Assembly: GCA_043818055.1 (NCBI GenBank)
Contig: JBDRGF010000090.1
Span: forward strand, 1-14,714
Length of the DNA: 14,714 bases
Direction: 5' to 3'
Origin: Pseudomonadota bacterium
Lineage (GTDB): Bacteria > UBA10199 > 2-02-FULL-44-16 > JBDRGF01
Positions within the stretch are counted from its first letter, which is position 1, and each line of letters begins with the position of its first letter. Positions 1 to 6,000 of this stretch are shown here, piece after piece. A program made the position numbers.

Positions 1-3000
1 ACAGATATTCACAAAGAAAGGAAAAAGAAAAAAAGAAGCAAAAAAAGAAAAAGGAAAGAAAGTTACTACGGCTACTACTATGATTAAATTTTACACCTTA
101 GAAAAATAGAAGATTGGTCTAGACAAACCCAACCACCTTAGAATTCAACTCTTAATTTCATTTGCGAACCTATGAACAATCTGGTAATTTCACTTTACTA
201 TGAAAAACACAAAAAATATGAATGTTGCTCCAAAGGGGACGACCGGTTATCCGGAGTTGGAAAAGCTGATCGAGACGGAAAATTTCGATGAGCTCAACGA
301 AGACTTCGAAAAGGCGTTTGCTGAGCTCGACGAAATCTCAAGCAAAGGGAAATCCCTTAAAAAATCAAGAGATGCGAAGAAGGCTCTCAAGGCCATAGAG
401 CTCACGATGGAGCTTTTGAAGGAGCTTTTGGCGTTGAAATACCGCCTTCAGGAGGAGCTGAAAAATAAGAAGCAGAAGAAATAGCTCAATGAGACTGTAT
501 AACAAATCAAATTTTGCATATAATGTCATTCTGAGTGAAGCGAAGAATCTTGTTAATTCGGATACTTAAGATCCTTCGTTACACTCAGGATGACAATGAG
601 AGTTCGGTTTTTAGGAAGAAAGGGTGAGCATGGGGGATAAAATCCACATTTATTTCATTTTTTTCCATAAATTAGCAACATCAGCTATCTCACCGGCCGA
701 TAACTTGATTAGAGGAGAAAAATATCGCCATGAATAAAGGAATCGAAAAAATAAATCCGCAAGCTATCAAGGCCAGCTCAGCCGGCATGAAGGTGGGAGC
801 ATCCAAGGATTTCAGCTCCTTTATCGGTGCTGTGAACGCCATGGGTCCGGCCGCTGTCACAGCTGGAGACATGTACGCAAAAGTCCCTGCTCAGGCTGTT
901 TTACAGGCCGCATTTTCGGGCGCAGCTCAGTCAGGTAGCGTCGGTGGTAGTACTCCGTATATGGCTTCAGGTACAGTGCCGGGAATGATGGGTGCGGGAA
1001 GCTATGCTGGTATGAAAGGTACCTCCGTTCCCGGTGGAACTGACCCTGTAGGCGCTGACGCTGGAGTCGATCAGGCGACCCTCATGAATACGATGTATCA
1101 GAACAATTTAAAGCTGCTCGAATTGCAGGCCATAATGCAGACGAATATGCAGGCCTGGAATACGAAGTCGAATATATTATCAGCAGATCACCGCGCGCGC
1201 ATGGCGATGATCGAGAAGTTTAGCACGAGATAATAAAAGCAAAGGCGCATCTGGTATATGGTATATTGTATATGGTGAAAACCTGGCAGGGCGGGCTTTT
1301 TACCATATGCTATATGCCATATGCTATGTACCGCTTTTAAGGGGGTAAGATGATCGAAATTCCAAGGGAAAAATTGGTTGTGATGATGGAAGCCGGCTAC
1401 CTCTTTTTGGGGATGCAGCGATATAAAGAGGCTCATCAGGTCTTTGAAGGTGTGGCGGCGCTATCTCCTGATAGCGAAGTGCCAGTTGTAGCTCTAGGTA
1501 GCCTCGCCTTTTGTCTGGGCAAATTTAACGATGCGATCAAGCTTTATGACAAGGCGCTCAAAATCGATCCCAATAGCCTCTTTGCCAAGGTATATATGGC
1601 CGAGACCCTCTTCTTCAGTGGAAAGCCTGATAAGGCGAAAAAGCTTCTGGTGGAGGTGAGCACACACGACAGGCATGGTGCGGCTGGAGACTTTGCCCGC
1701 GCTTTGAAGGATGCGATAGATGACGGTTTTACCCCCGAGTCGCTCGAGGGGCACGCGGTAAAGAAAGGTAAAGGCAATGTCAAAACGAAAAAGACCCGCA
1801 AAATTCGTTCTTAGTCTTATTCTCATAGGAATGCTCTTCATCGCGGGATGCAATCGCGTTGCGATATATCACAATCTCTCTGAAGAGGATGCGAATGCGA
1901 TGATCGTCTTGTTGCAGGAAAATGGCATCGAGGCTGAGAAGGTAAGAGAGGTTCAGCAAAACGAGGTCTACTGGTCGGTAGAGGTTTCGAAAGAGGATCT
2001 CTCCCGGGCGAGGCAGCTTTTAGTACATCACAATCTACCGCGACAGAAGGCGCTCGGATTGACCGGCGTCTATAAGGAGAAGGGACTCATCCCGACACCC
2101 GATGAACAGAAGGCGAGATACCTTTTGGCGCTCAAGGGAGAGATAGTCAATTCTCTTTTGAAGATTCCTGAAATAGTCGAAATCGATGTAGTGCTGAATA
2201 TCCCGACGAAAGAAGAATTTTCTGACGATACTGGAAAATCGCAGAAGCGTCCCACCGCCTCTGTCGTAGTGAGGGTATCCCAGACGACCGATGCAAGAGA
2301 GCTGATAACCGAGAGCAAGATCAAGGAGTTCGTGGCAAATTCAGTGGAGGGTCTAAATCCACGTGATGTTGCTGTGATAATCACCTATCTCCCCGGGCCT
2401 GAAAAATTTGTCGCGACTCAGGATTACAGGCTTCCCAAAGGGGCCGCATCTTCAAAGGATGTCGTGAAGGCTAAGGATGAAAAGAGAGAATCAAAGCTCG
2501 TAGGTCTGAATTTAACCGAGGAGTCCAAGGAGCGGTTGAAGATATATCTGCTCATTTTCTTTGTCGCTCTAGTCCTGTTGTCATCGGGCTTGATAATAGC
2601 GATAGTCTATGCCTCAAGGCTGAGGAGAAAATCATCCTCCTCTGAAAGGGGATTGATCCCATCCGACAAGAGATCTGCAGTCGAGGGTGAGGTGCTTGAG
2701 GATGGCGAAGAGGAGCCTCAAGAGGGAGAGGACGACAATATTTTCCCCGAATAAGATGAGAATTTGATTTTTTTCTTTGAAAGACGCAACTTTGGGTATG
2801 AAGCCCGCCGATACTATATTTGAGACGTAATCAATACCTGGAGAAAATATGCAATTTAAGTCGATACAACCAAATCTTGTGCGCTATCAGATGAGAATGG
2901 TTCAGGGGGAAAATCCCCACGAACAGGCTCAGAAACGTCCCGGCGCATTTGGCCGGTTTCTTTCAGGCTTTGGCAAGATTATGGGGGCTGTTGCGGCTCC

Positions 3001-6000
3001 TCTTTCGTTCATCTTCCCGCCCGCTGCTATAGGTGCTGCTGGTATGTATGGGCTAGGTCAGATAGGTGATCAGGTGCAGGCCCGTGCTTATACGCGCCAG
3101 ATTGAAAATGTTCAGAAGCAAAAGGCCATGCAGATATCCTTCCCGGGTTTGGGTAATGCTCAGGGAAATGTCGATCCGGTGACCTATGGTGTCTCGATGC
3201 AGGATCAACAGGTTACCAATGTATTGTTTCAAAGGGATGCTGCATTGAATGATATGAATCAAAAGCTCCTTAAGTAGAGGTTTGAGGATTATGGTAGAAA
3301 AGGTTAAAAAACAACGTGTTAGCCATCCACAGTTAAAGATAGTTCCTAATGAAATAAGGGACTTGGCCAAGACTTCAGAGGGATCTAAACTTTCAAGAAA
3401 GGGTGAGCTTGCCAGCCGTTTTAAAGAATTGCTGGGTAGAAGGCAGTTTCCTGCTACAGCCGAATTGACCGCTGAAGAGAGGAAGGAGATATTATATGAT
3501 CTCGTCGCTATACGAAAAAAAGGTGAGACCCCATTTATTCCTGAGACCCCAAAAGAGGCCCAGATGTTGAGAGATGGCTTCGAAAGGTATCATAATCTTC
3601 CTGAGAATATGAAAGTGGATCTCACAAGAAAAGGAATTACACCTCAAACCTTCGCACTCTTTTTTTCAATGCTGCAAAAATTTAAGAAGGGCTAATCTGG
3701 ATTTCTCATAAAGCAATGAAAAATCCAGGAAATCTCAAATTACAAACTGCAAATTCCAAATAAATTTCAATGATCAAATTTCAAAATATCCAAAACAGTC
3801 TGTTTTATGTGTTTGAACATTGATTTTTTAGTTTGAAGTTTGTAATTTGTGATTTATTTGGGGTTTGGTGCTTGAAATTTGGAATTTCAAAGCATTTCTC
3901 ACTGTTATTATGAGAAATGCGAGTTTAAGGTTGGGGGATTTTCTCCCCATTTTCCAATAGATTTTCTAAAATGTCTTTTTCCAATTAGTTAAGCAAATCA
4001 AATAGTTAAGTTTAAATCAGAGGCTATTTCCAAGTGGCACGGAACATGCAAGCTTAAATCTGCGACCAGATAACTTTACATGGGGGTAGTGATGGCAAGT
4101 TTACCGGCGAAGAAGATGAAAAAAAGAATACCTTCCAAATTGGAGCTTGAGGACAAGGCGCGTCGAAAGGCGGCCGCCGAAGTCACAGCTGCAATCGAGC
4201 ATGGGAAGCGAAAGAGGGGCCCGATTCATTTTACTAAGAAGGAGATGGGTTTGTTGAGAAAGCGCGACGAACTCATCGCACAGTATATGCCCTTTGCCGC
4301 CTCCATCGCGAACAGAGTTTGTCAGACACTCTCATCCGCAGTCGATCATGATGAGGTTATGTGCAACGCGAGATTGGGACTTCTCGAAGCGGCCAAGAGA
4401 TTCGATCCGAAACAGGAGGTCGATTTCAGAACTTACGCGTATTATAGGATCAAAGGCTCGATATATGACGGTTTGCGCCGCAGCGGATGGCTGCCGCGCA
4501 CCTTGTATGCCAAGGTCAGGTTTGAAGAAGCGGCCAGCGAATATCTGCAGAACAAGGCCTATGGCGCTCAGAAGGATGATGTTTTGCTCAGCAAAACAGA
4601 TGAGGAGATAGCCGATACCGTAAACCAGCTGGCATCGATCTATATTGTATCTTTAGAAGGGAGCGAGGAGTGTGAAAACCTTGAAGAGAAGAGCTCGGAG
4701 ATGGATGTCGAACGCAGGGCGGAATTCATGCAGGTTCGTAAATATATGAGGGCTGCGATAGCCGATCTTCCCGACAAGGAGAAGAAGCTGATCATGATGT
4801 ATTATTTTCAGAACAGAACTCTCGAAGAGATAGGAAAGAGGCTAGAGCTGTCGAAGTCATGGGTCTCGAGACTCCATGCGAGGGCGCTTGAGATGATGCT
4901 TAAGAGGATTAAGACGCTCGCTACTCAGACGATAAGCGATAATAGCGAATCGACGTTCGATACATCCGATGTATCCGAGACGTTCGATTTATAATTTTGG
5001 GTAAGTAAACTGGAGAAAATTATGACTGTAATAAGCAAAGTCGGTGCAAAAACTGTTCAAAAGGCTTTTCAGGAGAGCCAAAAGCTCGCGAAGCCGCTCG
5101 ATAACGCAACCACTTTCAAGGATCTTATGAAGCAGGCGGACGATGGCAAAGAGTTTGCCAAGTCGCTGGGTATGAACAACGATGGCGCCGCGAAGACGAT
5201 TGAAACTATCGATGCGAAGGATGTGGCTTTCGATGCCGGCGATCTCACTTCGAATTCAAAGGGTCCGGATGGCAAGGAGAGGTTCGTTGAAATGTTATGT
5301 GAGATAAACAAAGGCCAGATGCACATGGATCAACTGGTTAATCATGTTCTTTACAGCGGAAAGAAATTCACGAATCAGGAGATGCTTGTGATACAGGCTC
5401 ATGTCTATCATTATGCACAGATGACAGAGATGACGGTGAAAGTAGCGGAACAAGGTGTAAACTCTGTTAAGACAGTGCTCAATACACAGGTTCAGTAATG
5501 GGGGAATCGAATATCATGGGAACGCTCGAAAGACATAAAGTATTAGCCGCGATGATCGTGAAGGGTAAGGTCGATGATTACACTCCACTCGTCGATGCCC
5601 TCTCCCCTGAGGAGAAAAATCCTGTGAAAGAGTATATCAAAGAGCTGATGAATGAATCCGATGCCAGATACGCGGCTCTTGCCGAGATAAAAAAATTAAA
5701 GGCCAAACGCGATTTCAGGGACCTCGAGAAGGTTCACCCTGGATGGATACTTTACGCGCTGAGAGATGAATCTCCAAGGGTGATAGGCATTATCTTAAGA
5801 TATCTTCCTTCAAGGCAGGTCAGATACATAGTGCAGAACCTCCCGCCAAAGACCAGGGAGAGCCTTCCCCATATGGTGGAATCGTTTGCTGTTCCTTCAG
5901 AGGTGCTGGAGTTAGTTAAGAAAAAATTTATGGAGAGGTTTTCTTTTTTGAGTCCCGCCGTATCGGGTACGATTGCAAATCTCACAGCTGTCGATGGGGA

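What a model noticed while it worked through the whole genome (the two positions that open the first line are those of the whole stretch)
675..4994. A sigma-28-type promoter (GCAAC-N15/16-GCCGATAA) heads 86 operons of mostly orphan large proteins and ties them to the n [...]
A two-box motif, GCAAC(T/A)TTT ... (G/A)CCGATA(A), with 15-16 nt between GCAAC and CCGATA, lies 3-153 nt (median 36) upstream of 86 genes, always on the coding strand. Its -10 box is the hallmark of FliA/SigD/WhiG (sigma-28) promoters, and the only sigma-28-like factor of the genome (g01457, C90:4092-4994) is encoded inside the T3SS locus, itself behind a sigma-54-type site (C90:4035). Two sites lie in that locus (C90:675 before g01452-TPR g01453-SctJ g01454; C90:2786 before g01455) and are kept at the same places in two other genera. 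The regulon (133 genes in 86 operons) is dominated by proteins without family or signal peptide, including 23 of the 52 family-less proteins of 700 aa or more [...]
Evidence so far: Regex [GA][CA]AAC-N15-18-CCGATA: 117 sites, 86 intergenic and upstream of a same-strand gene within 200 nt, 24 inside genes; four controls (-10 reversed, -10 scrambled, spacer +10, -35 reversed) give 2, 0, 0 and 21 upstream sites, the last overlapping the true motif by a 1-nt shift. Targets: 66 of 86 without Pfam family (genome 30%), 12 of 86 with a crude signal peptide (genome 21%); operon extension: 67% of 133 genes without any family or Swiss-Prot match (genome 29%); family-less proteins >=700 aa: 23 of 52 in the regulon against 10 of 140 annotated ones. 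Conservation: sites before the g01452 and g01455 orthologues in G012 (L159:4378, 7674) and G018 (L160:4060, 6396); strict form GCAAC-N15 [...]
(Added by a program. Inside this text positions count along the whole contig: contig position 1 is position 1 of the stretch shown here. "Call 12" and the like, gene names such as g00115 and contig names such as C1 are that model's own, and its searches are not shown. The text may have been shortened before it was handed on; [...] marks where a part breaks off. The agent that wrote the report below was given it as the finding of a first reader that could run no searches.)

Follow-up and report, generated by a model that had tools for sequence, protein, structure and literature searches.

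The report
Type III secretion sigma-factor regulon
An uncultured bacterium, like nearly every sequenced member of its phylum, encodes a flagellar-type sigma factor inside a type III secretion gene cluster although it has no flagellum, and the promoter this factor most likely reads marks about 80-90 operons of mostly unknown proteins, which gives a list of candidate secreted effectors.

Summary
GCAAC-Nx-CCGATA peaks at x=15/16/17 (37/40/7 sites, against 0-4 at other spacings). With my own gene calls, 79 sites lie within 200 nt upstream of a same-strand gene, against 0-2 for three controls.

Both window sites (675, 2786) are real, but their spacer is 17 nt, not 15-16.

- The sigma (4092-4994) is FliA/WhiG-like, below family cut-offs, and is the only such factor of five sigmas.
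- Its orthologue is in 91 of 93 genomes of the phylum.
- The motif is enriched in 41 of 41 genomes searched.
- An ECF rival is excluded.
- A sigma-54-type promoter precedes the sigma gene in 14 of 14 related loci.
- Motif sites are kept before the same genes in relatives.
- Targets are mostly family-less (59/79 against 31/90), long, and have acid-poor, Ser/Pro/Gln/Thr-rich N-termini.

The logic resembles HrpL, but with a sigma-28-family factor and a changed -35 box. No transcript starts, anti-sigma factor or secretion data exist.

Earlier notes of this scan report similar secretion-linked sigma-28 paralogues on other DNA.

The parts
200..484 (+). Small helical protein (94 aa) at the head of the locus. 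By its position it could be a YscE-like co-chaperone. Function open.
   Evidence: Conserved before the g730 orthologue in 10 related loci. No Pfam family. Only a faint SctX hit, E 0.02. No Atlas lead.
675..703 (+). Promoter 1, subclass with 17-nt spacer: GCAAC 675-679, (G)CCGATA(A) 696-703.
   Evidence: An equivalent site precedes the g730 orthologue in 8 of 9 loci by regex, and in the ninth as an ACGATA variant.
730..1233 (+). Family-less 167-aa protein with a Gly-rich middle. First gene behind promoter 1. A needle- or rod-class part is possible but not shown.
   Evidence: No Pfam or NCBIfam family. Conserved at 39-52% identity in relatives.
1350..1814 (+). TPR protein, chaperone-like.
   Evidence: TPR_2 and TPR_19. 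Weak LcrH/SycD, CdsG and SctY hits, all below cut-offs.
1777..2754 (+). SctJ inner-membrane ring lipoprotein.
   Evidence: YscJ_FliF 83.7 bits. TIGR02544 SctJ is the best hit at 140.9 bits, below its cut-off of 161.95.
2786..2814 (+). Promoter 2, subclass with 17-nt spacer: GCAAC 2786-2790, CCGATA 2808-2813.
   Evidence: An equivalent site precedes the g2849 orthologue in 9 of 10 loci by regex, and in the tenth as an ACGATA variant.
2849..3277 (+). Family-less 142-aa protein with a hydrophobic middle segment. Conserved.
3282..3695 (+). Non-conserved ORF (137 aa) in a variable slot between g2849 and the sigma gene.
   Evidence: No tblastn hit in any of 14 related loci. No family.
4035..4050 (+). 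Sigma-54-type promoter TGGCAC-N5-ATGCA, 41 nt before the ATG at 4092.
   Evidence: The equivalent TGGCA(C/T)-N5-(C/G)TGCA lies before the sigma gene in 14 of 14 related loci, 12 by regex and 2 by eye. rpoN and 14 enhancer-binding proteins are in the genome.
4092..4994 (+). FliA/WhiG-like (group 3) sigma factor with a basic N-terminal extension of about 55 aa. Proposed reader of the motif.
   Evidence: Sigma70_r2 and r4. Best NCBIfam hit TIGR02479 FliA_WhiG at 138.6 bits, cut-off 189.6. Best solved relatives are a sigma factor in 6pfv/6pfj (which I recall as WhiG), then FliA of P. aeruginosa, E. coli and Aquifex. Orthologues in 91 of 93 genomes of the phylum. Region 4.2 is near-invariant (one position V or T, one S-to-C change) in 15 of 15 sequences.
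5022..5498 (+). Needle/inner-rod-class protein (SctI/SctF/HrpB2-like), 27 nt after the sigma gene.
   Evidence: The Atlas nearest clusters carry T3SS_needle_F, HrpB2 or an SctI name, scores 0.97-0.88. This is a lead, not a family hit. Conserved in 14 of 14 loci.
5498..14714 (+). Rest of the presumed sigma-54-driven operon: FliG_M-like protein at the SctK position (5498-6544), SctL/FliH (6586-7260), ATPase SctN (7260-8627), SctO/FliJ (8639-9151), FliK-like (9217-10008), FliM-like (10024-10953), FliN/SctQ (11070-11576), FliO-like (11604-12026), SctR (12007-12789), SctS (12789-13055), SctT (13133-14026), and an unassigned ORF cut by the contig end (14052-14714).
   Evidence: No GCAAC...CCGATA site lies between the genes. 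The last ORF has no family hit, so SctU is not shown.

Best explanation
A two-step sigma cascade dedicated to a type III secretion machine that works without a flagellum.

Step 1 (inferred from a conserved promoter). An unidentified enhancer-binding protein and sigma-54 fire the promoter at 4035-4050. This transcribes the sigma gene (4092-4994) together with the rod-like, sorting-platform, ATPase and export-gate genes downstream.

Step 2 (inferred from consensus, exclusion and co-conservation). The sigma is a FliA/WhiG-family paralogue. It keeps the sigma-28 region that reads the -10 box GCCGATAA, but carries Arg at the region-4.2 position where P. aeruginosa FliA has the base-reading Gln228. 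It directs RNA polymerase to GCAAC(T/A)TTT-N-(G/A)CCGATAA promoters, of two kinds:
- A subclass with a 17-nt spacer and a G-rich start of the spacer. It heads conserved machine-associated genes: the g730-TPR-SctJ operon, g2849, a lytic transglycosylase and a conserved 213-aa protein.
- The main class with a 15-16-nt spacer. It heads about 70-80 operons of mostly family-less, often very large proteins. The two tested are lineage-specific. N-termini are poor in acidic residues and rich in Ser, Pro, Gln and Thr.

I take most of the main class to be secretion substrates or other parts of an attack or contact programme.

In logic this is HrpL with its hrp box. In ancestry it is a flagellar sigma-28 that stayed with a secretion machine after the flagellum was lost.
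For: Motif is real, strand-bound and at promoter distance:
- (counts in the observation check).
- One-mismatch variants add 27 upstream sites, against 3 and 11 in spacer controls.

Sigma-28 geometry:
- Published -10 GCCGATAA at -15..-8 and -35 TCTAAAG at -36..-30 (PMC12784957 passages).
- Here GCAAC is followed by 14-16 nt, then (G/A)CCGATAA.
- Bdellovibrio FliA promoters are TTAAG-N16-CCGATA (PMC3627812 passages).

Sigma identity:
- FliA_WhiG is the best NCBIfam family.
- The best solved relatives are 6pfv/6pfj (titled only 'RNA polymerase sigma factor'; I recall them as WhiG) and FliA.
- The segment F-x-T-Y/F-A-x-x-R-I-K/R-G-x(8-9)-W-L/A-P-R is shared with P. aeruginosa FliA.
- The only S-x3-Q pair in the aligned FliA helix, which fits S224/Q228 of the paper, aligns to S-W-V-S-R. 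This is unchanged at these residues in 14 of 15 orthologues (one has Cys for the second Ser; the Arg is in all 15).

Exclusion:
- Only four sigma-70-family genes plus rpoN.
- The ECF has at most 37% identity to anything in 92 other genomes.
- It is unmatched in 24 of the 40 relatives that hold 10-61 motif sites.

Co-conservation:
- Sigma in 91 of 93 genomes. The two misses are 78% and 73% complete.
- Motif at 7-69 sites per genome in 41 of 41, against 0-3 for the reversed pattern.

Conserved regulon members:
- Sites before the g730 and g2849 orthologues.
- Sites before the transglycosylase orthologue in 18 of 19 relatives, and before the 213-aa protein orthologue in 18 of 19.
- The 17-nt spacer predominates in those loci: 19 of 21, 19 of 27 and 21 of 25 hits.

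Sigma-54 step.

Targets:
- 59 of 79 without a Pfam family, against 31 of 90 random genes, Fisher p 2e-7.
- 19 of 79 are 700 aa or longer, against 176 of 2543.
- Two large orphans have homologues in 0 of 30 and 1 of 30 relatives.
- Residues 2-25 hold 1.57 acidic residues against 2.84, and 6.43 S+P+Q+T against 4.51, each p below 1e-9. The difference is weaker at residues 61-84.

No flagellum: no flagellin and no rod/hook C-terminal domain in a genome that is 93.6% complete.
Against: - No transcript 5' ends. The one RNA run that holds the locus is kept as contigs at low depth. It shows neither starts nor strand, and DNA carry-over is not excluded.
- No binding or in vitro data.
- The sigma scores below the FliA/WhiG family cut-offs.
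- The -35 box differs from every described sigma-28 -35 box and looks ECF-like.
- RpoD and the sigma-32-like factor cannot be excluded by phylogenetic profile, only by consensus.
- The sigma is in nearly all genomes of the phylum, so there is no sigma-less contrast group.
- No FlgM-like anti-sigma factor was found.
- 11 of 79 targets have a crude signal peptide, several lipoprotein-like. About 20 have ordinary families such as radical SAM, DEAD helicase, MFS, uridine kinase and a transposase. The regulon is therefore not purely effectors, or some sites are chance.
- SctV's own upstream region shows no site on the assembled contig.
- Gene calls are my own crude ones.
- The Pfam background is a sample of 90 genes.
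Confidence: 0.75

Rival explanations
1. The promoters are real and read by this sigma, but the main-class targets are mostly not type III secretion substrates. They would form a broader life-stage programme of surface proteins, proteases, signalling proteins and lipoproteins, as in the FliA-driven attack-phase regulon of Bdellovibrio. The secretion machine would be only one member.
For: - In Bdellovibrio, 92 of 140 attack-phase promoters carry TTAAG-N16-CCGATA and head many non-flagellar and uncharacterised genes (PMC3627812 passages).
- Here 11 of 79 targets have signal-peptide-like N-termini, including a serpin and an S41 peptidase with lipobox-like starts.
- A GGDEF protein, FHA proteins and a protein with a PP2C-like domain are among the targets.
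Against: - The N-terminal bias (few acidic residues, many Ser, Pro, Gln and Thr) in the 67 targets without a signal peptide is stronger at residues 2-25 than at 61-84. It fits what I recall of type III signals.
- TM-like segments are rarer in targets: 12 of 79 against 716 of 2531.
- The sigma gene lies inside the secretion locus, and the locus's own operons carry the motif.
Confidence: 0.3
2. The motif is read by another sigma of the genome: the sigma-32-like factor, or RpoD helped by an activator that binds GCAAC.
For: - Both factors are presumably universal in the phylum, so the profile cannot exclude them.
- The extended -10 consensus CCGATAAT contains GATAAT, five of six letters of a sigma-70 -10 hexamer.
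- I recall that sigma-32 -10 boxes (CCCCAT) share C-C-x-A-T with it.
Against: - The invariant CCG before ATA is the sigma-28 hallmark (PMC12784957 passages).
- None of the 20 targets with a Pfam family is a chaperone or heat-shock protease.
- GCAAC at the -35 position fits neither TTGACA nor the sigma-32 -35 box (recalled).
- The two best-conserved sites lie in the locus that encodes the FliA-like sigma.
Confidence: 0.08
3. The ECF sigma (C23:21240-21782) reads the motif. GCAAC(T)TT has the AAC core and the AAC-N16/17-CG geometry that I recall for ECF promoters.
For: Likeness of the -35 box to ECF -35 boxes (recalled, no call). HrpL and BtrS, the known secretion-system sigmas, are ECF factors (PMC2957411 passages; PMC10732220 search listing).
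Against: - The best hit of this ECF in 92 other genomes has 37% identity, and 37 of 93 genomes have no ECF-type hit at E 1e-10.
- 24 of those 37 are among the 40 relatives that carry 10-61 motif sites.
- No motif lies before the ECF gene itself.
Confidence: 0.02
4. The two-box motif is not a promoter but a repressor or activator site, or the end of a mobile repeat that happens to lie before genes.
For: Several assembly-breaking repeat families end at or a few nt before GCAAC. Repeats of 4 or more copies abut 13 of 78 sites, against 52 of 1038 control upstream regions.
Against: - 65 of 78 sites have no such repeat.
- The two blocks have promoter spacing and sit a median 34 nt before start codons on the coding strand only.
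- The sequence downstream of GCAAC differs between repeat copies.
- The motif is kept at orthologous positions across families whose flanks have diverged.
Confidence: 0.03

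Closest known systems
HrpL and the hrp box of Pseudomonas syringae, Erwinia and Dickeya (Hrp1-type secretion systems)
   Same: An alternative sigma factor encoded with the secretion genes and itself dependent on sigma-54 plus an enhancer-binding protein (HrpS). It reads a two-box promoter placed before both apparatus and effector genes, so the box predicts the effector list (PMC2957411 passages).
   Different: HrpL is an ECF (group 4) sigma of about 180 aa (size recalled). This factor is a 300-aa FliA/WhiG-like group 3 sigma. The box differs: the hrp box GGAACC-N15/16-CCACNNA is recalled, not from a call. No adjacent HrpR/S-like activator has been identified. The machine is of a different, flagellum-like type.
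FliA (sigma-28) class 3 flagellar promoters with FlgM
   Same: Closest sigma family. The same -10 element GCCGATAA and the same distance from the -35 to the -10 box. The sigma-2/sigma-3 segment that contacts the -10 region is conserved.
   Different: - The -35 box is GCAAC instead of T(C)TAAAG, with Arg at the position of the base-reading Gln228.
- No flagellin or rod genes.
- No FlgM.
- It drives early structural genes such as SctJ, not only late ones.
- It scores below the family cut-offs.
FliA attack-phase regulon of Bdellovibrio bacteriovorus
   Same: A sigma-28-type promoter (TTAAG-N16-CCGATA) heads about 90 promoters that include many non-flagellar and uncharacterised genes of a predator (PMC3627812 passages).
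   Different: In Bdellovibrio the factor is the flagellar FliA of a motile cell and still drives flagellar genes. Here the cell has no flagellar genes, the sigma lies in a secretion locus behind a sigma-54 promoter, and the -35 box has changed.
T3SS* of Myxococcus xanthus (needle-less, secretin-less type III-like system used in contact-dependent prey killing)
   Same: A type III system without a flagellum, described as a possible intermediate between the flagellar export system and the injectisome. Its effectors are unknown (PMC10433427 passages). The present locus has mixed flagellar and injectisome affinities: the ATPase passes both the FliI_clade2 and SctN cut-offs, and there are FliO-, FliG_M- and separate FliM- and FliN-like genes.
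   Different: Membership was not tested: no Myxococcus sequence was compared. Whether this locus has a needle or a secretin is open. The review does not use the word sigma at all.
BtrS with its secreted anti-sigma factor BtrA in Bordetella
   Same: A secretion-locus sigma factor whose antagonist leaves the cell through the same machine (title and abstract in the search listing, PMC10732220). It is the model for the partner that is missing here.
   Different: I recall BtrS as an ECF sigma. No antagonist has been found here.

Membership tests
FliA/WhiG (sigma-28, group 3) sigma factors | Best similarity among sigma families is to FliA/WhiG over sigma regions 2 to 4 | tested here: met
   TIGR02479 is the top NCBIfam hit, E 2.4e-40 over residues 65-275. 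Top solved relatives are 6pfv/6pfj (7e-27; titled 'RNA polymerase sigma factor', WhiG by recall) and FliA 9wsm, 6pmi and 1rp3.
FliA/WhiG (sigma-28, group 3) sigma factors | Score over the curated family cut-off | tested here: not met
   138.6 bits against a cut-off of 189.6 for TIGR02479. 138.6 against 343 for the WhiG equivalog. 117.1 against 201 for FliA.
FliA/WhiG (sigma-28, group 3) sigma factors | Cognate promoters with -10 GCCGATAA | tested here: inconclusive
   The motif has (G/A)CCGATAA, but that this sigma reads it is inferred, not measured.
FliA/WhiG (sigma-28, group 3) sigma factors | -35 box TAAA(G) | tested here: not met
   GCAAC in 84 strict sites. Arg replaces the Gln228 equivalent.
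FliA/WhiG (sigma-28, group 3) sigma factors | Control of late flagellar genes and a FlgM partner (FliA), or sporulation genes with RsiG (WhiG) | tested here: not met
   No flagellin, no Flg_bbr_C domain, and no FlgM over the cut-off, best E 0.04 on another contig. RsiG was not searched.
HrpL-type secretion regulatory cascade | Sigma gene behind a sigma-54-dependent promoter | tested here: met
   By sequence only: TGGCAC-N5-ATGCA at 4035-4050, with the equivalent in 14 of 14 loci. rpoN is present.
HrpL-type secretion regulatory cascade | The sigma is an ECF (group 4) factor | tested here: not met
   Full-length group 3-like protein of 300 aa.
HrpL-type secretion regulatory cascade | One promoter box before apparatus genes and before scattered effector genes | tested here: met
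   By sequence only: the locus operons, the transglycosylase, and about 70 scattered operons.
HrpL-type secretion regulatory cascade | Dedicated enhancer-binding protein (HrpR/HrpS) encoded with the system | tested here: inconclusive
   14 enhancer-binding proteins in the genome, none on this contig. A tandem pair lies on C147, 8 kb from a 17-nt-spacer promoter.
Non-flagellar type III secretion system | Core parts SctJ, L, N, O, Q, R, S, T, V | tested here: met
   SctV is on C159.
Non-flagellar type III secretion system | SctU, secretin SctC and needle SctF | tested here: inconclusive
   The ORF at the SctU position is cut by the contig end and has no family hit. There are three secretins elsewhere, linkage unknown. 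No Pfam needle hit; the Atlas gives a needle/rod-class lead for 5022-5498.
Non-flagellar type III secretion system | No flagellar filament, hook or rod genes | tested here: met
   in a genome 93.6% complete.

The most novel reading that the evidence does not exclude
The locus is a surviving intermediate between flagellum and injectisome, with its regulation intact. It would be a T3SS*-like contact or predation machine that kept the flagellar sigma-28, and perhaps a still unfound secreted anti-sigma checkpoint. It retuned the -35 box and expanded the sigma's regulon into a fast-turning arsenal of about 80 mostly giant orphan effectors. Sigma, locus order and promoter are kept in essentially every genome of the phylum. 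The whole phylum would then live by type III-mediated attack on other cells, and the promoter box would give the first effector catalogue for this class of machine.
Probability: 0.3. Interest if true: 0.85.

Novelty: new variant of a known kind. Interest (0 to 1): 0.68.

Why it matters
A promoter box that marks the cargo of a secretion machine is what made effector discovery possible in plant pathogens. Here the same handle appears in an uncultured phylum of 93 species-level genomes, for a flagellum-like type III system whose relatives (T3SS* of myxobacteria) have no known effectors.

It yields testable lists of candidate effectors per genome, most of them large proteins without any family.

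It also shows a sigma-28-family factor acting as master regulator of a secretion system that works without a flagellum. That bears on how injectisome regulation arose from flagellar regulation.

It offers a natural case of changed -35 specificity (Gln to Arg in region 4.2) that can be tested with purified parts.

Public annotations call these proteins 'sigma factor for flagellar operon FliA'. That is misleading for this genome, in which I found no flagellin or rod genes; some other members of the phylum do have flagellin.

Tried and rejected
1. ECF sigma as reader of the motif: rejected by phylogenetic profile.
2. The gene after the sigma (5022-5498) as anti-sigma factor: set aside. The Atlas places it with needle/rod-class proteins.
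3. FlgM search: nothing over the cut-off.
4. The 94-aa protein at 200-484 as a FlgM analogue: no lead. Its place before a candidate needle-class gene and a TPR chaperone suggests a YscE-like role. Not tested.
5. Complex prediction was not used. I claim no binding pair, and every candidate had a low prior.
6. A sigma-less contrast group within the phylum: impossible, since the sigma is in 91 of 93 genomes.
7. RNA evidence. One metatranscriptome run holds 27 of 30 bins of the window as contigs, 29 of 38 pieces at 99% identity or more. Contigs show no starts, strand or level, and two sister runs hold almost nothing. This is no evidence either way on the promoters.
8. Rfam on five repeat-bearing regions: no match at E 0.1.
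9. NCBIfam on twelve targets: eight behind 17-nt-spacer or similar promoters and four small ones. Only the transglycosylase, FHA and PP2C-like domains were found, and no secretion-system family.
10. SctV's upstream region: no motif on the assembled contig.
11. Phylum name. I recall that genomes labelled like some of the relatives belong to the candidate phylum UBA10199, but no call shows it. Two searches with that name found nothing on secretion systems of this group.
12. Literature. Searches found no description of a sigma-28-family factor heading or sitting in a type III cluster that lacks flagellar genes, nor of a GCAAC...CCGATA promoter. The library lacks most subscription journals, and no supplements were read.

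Full report
**What is in the window**

The window is a whole contig of 14,714 bases (C90) from a genome of 2.93 Mb in 166 contigs, 93.6% complete. It is a one-strand type III secretion locus. Its parts, in order:
- A 94-aa helical protein (200-484).
- Promoter-like site 1 (675-703).
- A family-less 167-aa protein, a TPR chaperone-like protein and SctJ (730-2754).
- Promoter-like site 2 (2786-2814).
- A family-less 142-aa protein (2849-3277) and a non-conserved ORF (3282-3695).
- A 385-nt spacer that ends in a sigma-54-type site (4035-4050).
- A sigma factor (4092-4994).
- A rod/needle-class protein, a FliG_M-like protein, SctL/FliH, the ATPase, SctO/FliJ, a FliK-like, a FliM-like, a FliN/SctQ and a FliO-like protein, then SctR, SctS, SctT and a cut ORF.

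The machine is midway between flagellar and injectisome families:
- The ATPase passes both the FliI_clade2 cut-off (649.2 against 629.8) and the SctN cut-off (631.6 against 604.75).
- SctR beats FliP, and FliQ beats SctS.
- The genome has no flagellin and no flagellar rod/hook C-terminal domain.
- SctV lies on another contig.

**The observation**

- Both window sites are as described, except that their spacer is 17 nt.
- The spacing profile is decisive. GCAAC-Nx-CCGATA occurs 37, 40 and 7 times at x = 15, 16 and 17, and 0-4 times at each other spacing from 5 to 39.
- With my own gene caller (2622 genes, 90% coding), 79 of 117 sites are intergenic and within 200 nt upstream of a same-strand gene, median 34 nt.
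- Three controls give 0-2 such sites.
- Of 14 strict sites not scored as upstream, 5 lie in low-scoring short called ORFs and 3 in over-extended gene starts.
- One-mismatch variants, mostly (A/T/G)CGATA or ACAAC, add 27 upstream sites against 3 and 11 in controls. About 90 promoters is a fair estimate.
- 57 of 79 target proteins have no paralogue, so the sites are independent.

**Which sigma**

The genome holds RpoD, a sigma-32-like factor, one ECF sigma, sigma-54 and the locus sigma.

The locus sigma:
- It is most like FliA/WhiG (TIGR02479, 138.6 bits), but below the cut-off of 189.6.
- Its nearest solved relatives are 6pfv/6pfj, which I recall as WhiG, and three FliA proteins.

The -10 box is the published sigma-28 element. 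In the P. aeruginosa fliC promoter, GCCGATAA spans -15 to -8 and TCTAAAG spans -36 to -30. That leaves 14 nt between the boxes, the same as in the N15 class here (passages of PMC12784957; weight matrix).

That paper shows Gln228 of region 4.2 reading the -35 box. The only Ser-x3-Gln pair in the aligned FliA helix aligns to Ser-Trp-Val-Ser-Arg in this sigma. That stretch is near-identical in all 15 orthologues aligned; the Arg is invariant. A changed reading residue beside a changed -35 box is what a retuned sigma-28 would look like. This step is inference.

**The rival I took most seriously**

GCAAC(T)TT resembles ECF -35 boxes, by recall, and the known secretion-system sigmas HrpL and BtrS are ECF factors. 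The profile rejects it:
- The ECF of this genome has no orthologue. Its best hit among 92 genomes has 37% identity.
- 37 of 93 genomes have no ECF-type hit at all.
- 24 of those 37 are among the 40 relatives in which GCAAC-N15/16-CCGATAA occurs 10-61 times, against 0-3 for the reversed pattern.

The locus sigma, by contrast, is in 91 of 93 genomes, at 45-64% identity where the orthologue is whole. The two misses are 78% and 73% complete. Because it is near-universal, no sigma-less contrast group exists. RpoD and the sigma-32-like factor are excluded only by consensus and by the nature of the targets.

**Conservation**

In 14 related loci the gene order from the 94-aa protein to SctO is the same.
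- A motif site precedes the g730 orthologue in 8 of 9 loci, and the g2849 orthologue in 9 of 10, by regex. The two misses carry ACGATA variants.
- All 14 loci have TGGCA(C/T)-N5-(C/G)TGCA just before the sigma gene.
- Two unlinked genes behind 17-nt-spacer promoters were tested in 19 relatives each. The lytic transglycosylase and a 213-aa protein each keep the motif upstream in 18 of 19.
- In all these loci the 17-nt spacer predominates.
- Two large orphans behind 15- and 16-nt-spacer promoters have homologues in 0 of 30 and 1 of 30 relatives.

So a conserved core sits behind a 17-nt spacer, and a fast-changing cargo behind a 15-16-nt spacer. The class difference is an observation from few cases, not a tested rule.

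**The targets**

- 59 of 79 have no Pfam family over the cut-off, against 31 of 90 genes from six random 20-kb stretches (p 2e-7).
- 19 of 79 are 700 aa or longer, against 176 of 2543. 15 of those 19 are family-less.
- Families that do occur include serpin, trypsin-like, C39 and S41 peptidases, FHA, PP2C-like, SNF2 with DUF488, AAA and GGDEF. There are also likely bystanders: radical SAM, a DEAD helicase, MFS, uridine kinase and a transposase.
- Among the 67 targets without a crude signal peptide, residues 2-25 hold fewer acidic residues (1.57 against 2.84) and more Ser, Pro, Gln and Thr (6.43 against 4.51). Both have p below 1e-9, and the differences are smaller at residues 61-84. This fits what I recall of type III secretion signals, but it is not proof.
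- 11 of 79 look Sec-exported.

**How it most likely works**

Sigma-54 with an unknown activator turns on the sigma together with the cytoplasmic and export-gate parts. The sigma then turns on the remaining machine parts and the cargo.

- Shown by computation: the motif and its statistics, its conservation, the family likeness of the sigma, and the conserved sigma-54 site.
- Inferred: who reads what, the order of events, and secretion of the targets.
- No anti-sigma factor was found.
- The only RNA data are low-depth contigs that cover 27 of 30 bins of the window and say nothing about starts.

**Comparison with what is known**

- The logic is that of HrpS to HrpL to the hrp box (PMC2957411 passages), but with a group 3 sigma.
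- The promoter and the size of the regulon recall the FliA attack-phase regulon of Bdellovibrio: TTAAG-N16-CCGATA in 92 of 140 promoters (PMC3627812 passages). Here, however, the cell has no flagellum.
- The machine recalls the needle-less T3SS* of Myxococcus, whose effectors are unknown (PMC10433427 passages).
- Public sources name homologues of this sigma 'FliA for flagellar operon'.
- My searches found no paper describing this arrangement.
- Earlier notes of this scan report similar secretion-linked sigma-28 paralogues in Acidobacteria and in an uncultured flagellum-less phylum. I did not test those notes.

**Verdict**

This is a real, strongly supported regulatory motif. Its assignment to the locus sigma is probable. 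It is a new variant of a known kind of system, and it has practical value as an effector finder for an uncultured phylum.

Noticed in passing
G000 contigs, e.g. C14:690-877, C14:7598-7801, C165:39460-39661, C165:49508-49709, C60:1-145, and the ends of C111, C125, C130 and C164: A non-coding repeat of about 140-200 nt (12 copies seen) ends exactly at the -35 box: the homology stops at GCAAC and the sequences differ from the spacer onward. Three other repeat families end a few nt before GCAAC or share a common terminal 11-mer. Repeats of 4 or more copies abut 13 of 78 motif sites, against 52 of 1038 control upstream regions (p 3e-4). Either elements insert beside GCAAC, or a shared upstream module has spread among these promoters. 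No Rfam match.
   Followed up: partly
window 675-703 and 2786-2814; G000 C102:14952, C104:29047, C147:17641, C131:25593, C24:32850: There are two promoter subclasses. A 17-nt spacer that starts TT(T/C)(G/A)G occurs at 7 sites in this genome and heads conserved genes. A 15-16-nt spacer that starts with (T/A)TTT heads mostly lineage-specific orphans. This could reflect a hierarchy of promoter strength or a second factor.
   Followed up: partly
L154-L158 (flagellin loci of relatives G063, G077, G079): Some members of the phylum carry a second, distant FliA-like paralogue (27-35% identity). 3 of 5 such genomes checked have flagellin genes. Four of the five flagellin upstream regions show (C)T(A/C)AAG-N11/12-TCCGT(T/C)C by eye, with neither GCAAC nor CCGATA. 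The two sigma-28-family factors therefore seem to read different boxes.
   Followed up: partly
window 3729-3888 and 3892-3920: The spacer before the sigma-54 site holds a long imperfect inverted repeat (60-nt arms, 73% complementary). It also holds a 10-nt perfect palindrome with a 9-nt loop, centred about 130 nt upstream of the -24 box, a plausible activator site. Related loci have different short tandem repeats in the same spacer (L008, L010, L013).
   Followed up: no
window 3282-3695; L008:2700-6000: The slot between g2849 and the sigma gene is variable. The ORF here has no counterpart in 14 related loci. In L008 the slot holds two further motif sites, at 3110 and 4935.
   Followed up: no
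window 4092-4260: The sigma has a conserved, basic N-terminal extension of about 55 residues that FliA proteins lack, and an acidic C-terminal tail. Function unknown.
   Followed up: no
G000 C102:14952-14996: The conserved 213-aa gene has a sigma-54-type site 93 nt before its start, and the 17-nt-spacer motif just downstream of that site. These are tandem promoters of both cascade levels. The strict sigma-54 regex finds 53 sites in the genome, 36 of them upstream of genes.
   Followed up: no
window 425-600: The region upstream of promoter 1 contains a palindromic repeat. BLAST finds 13 other copies of the upstream 250 nt in the genome. About a quarter of control upstream regions also hold repeats, so the genome is rich in small intergenic repeats.
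   Followed up: no
window 14052-14714: The ORF at the position where SctU/FlhB is expected has no Pfam or NCBIfam hit over its 221 residues before the contig ends.
   Followed up: no
G000 C147:5663-8484: Two tandem sigma-54 enhancer-binding proteins (461 and 470 aa) lie 8 kb from a 17-nt-spacer promoter on the same contig. They are a candidate pair for activating the sigma gene, by analogy with HrpR/HrpS. Untested.
   Followed up: no
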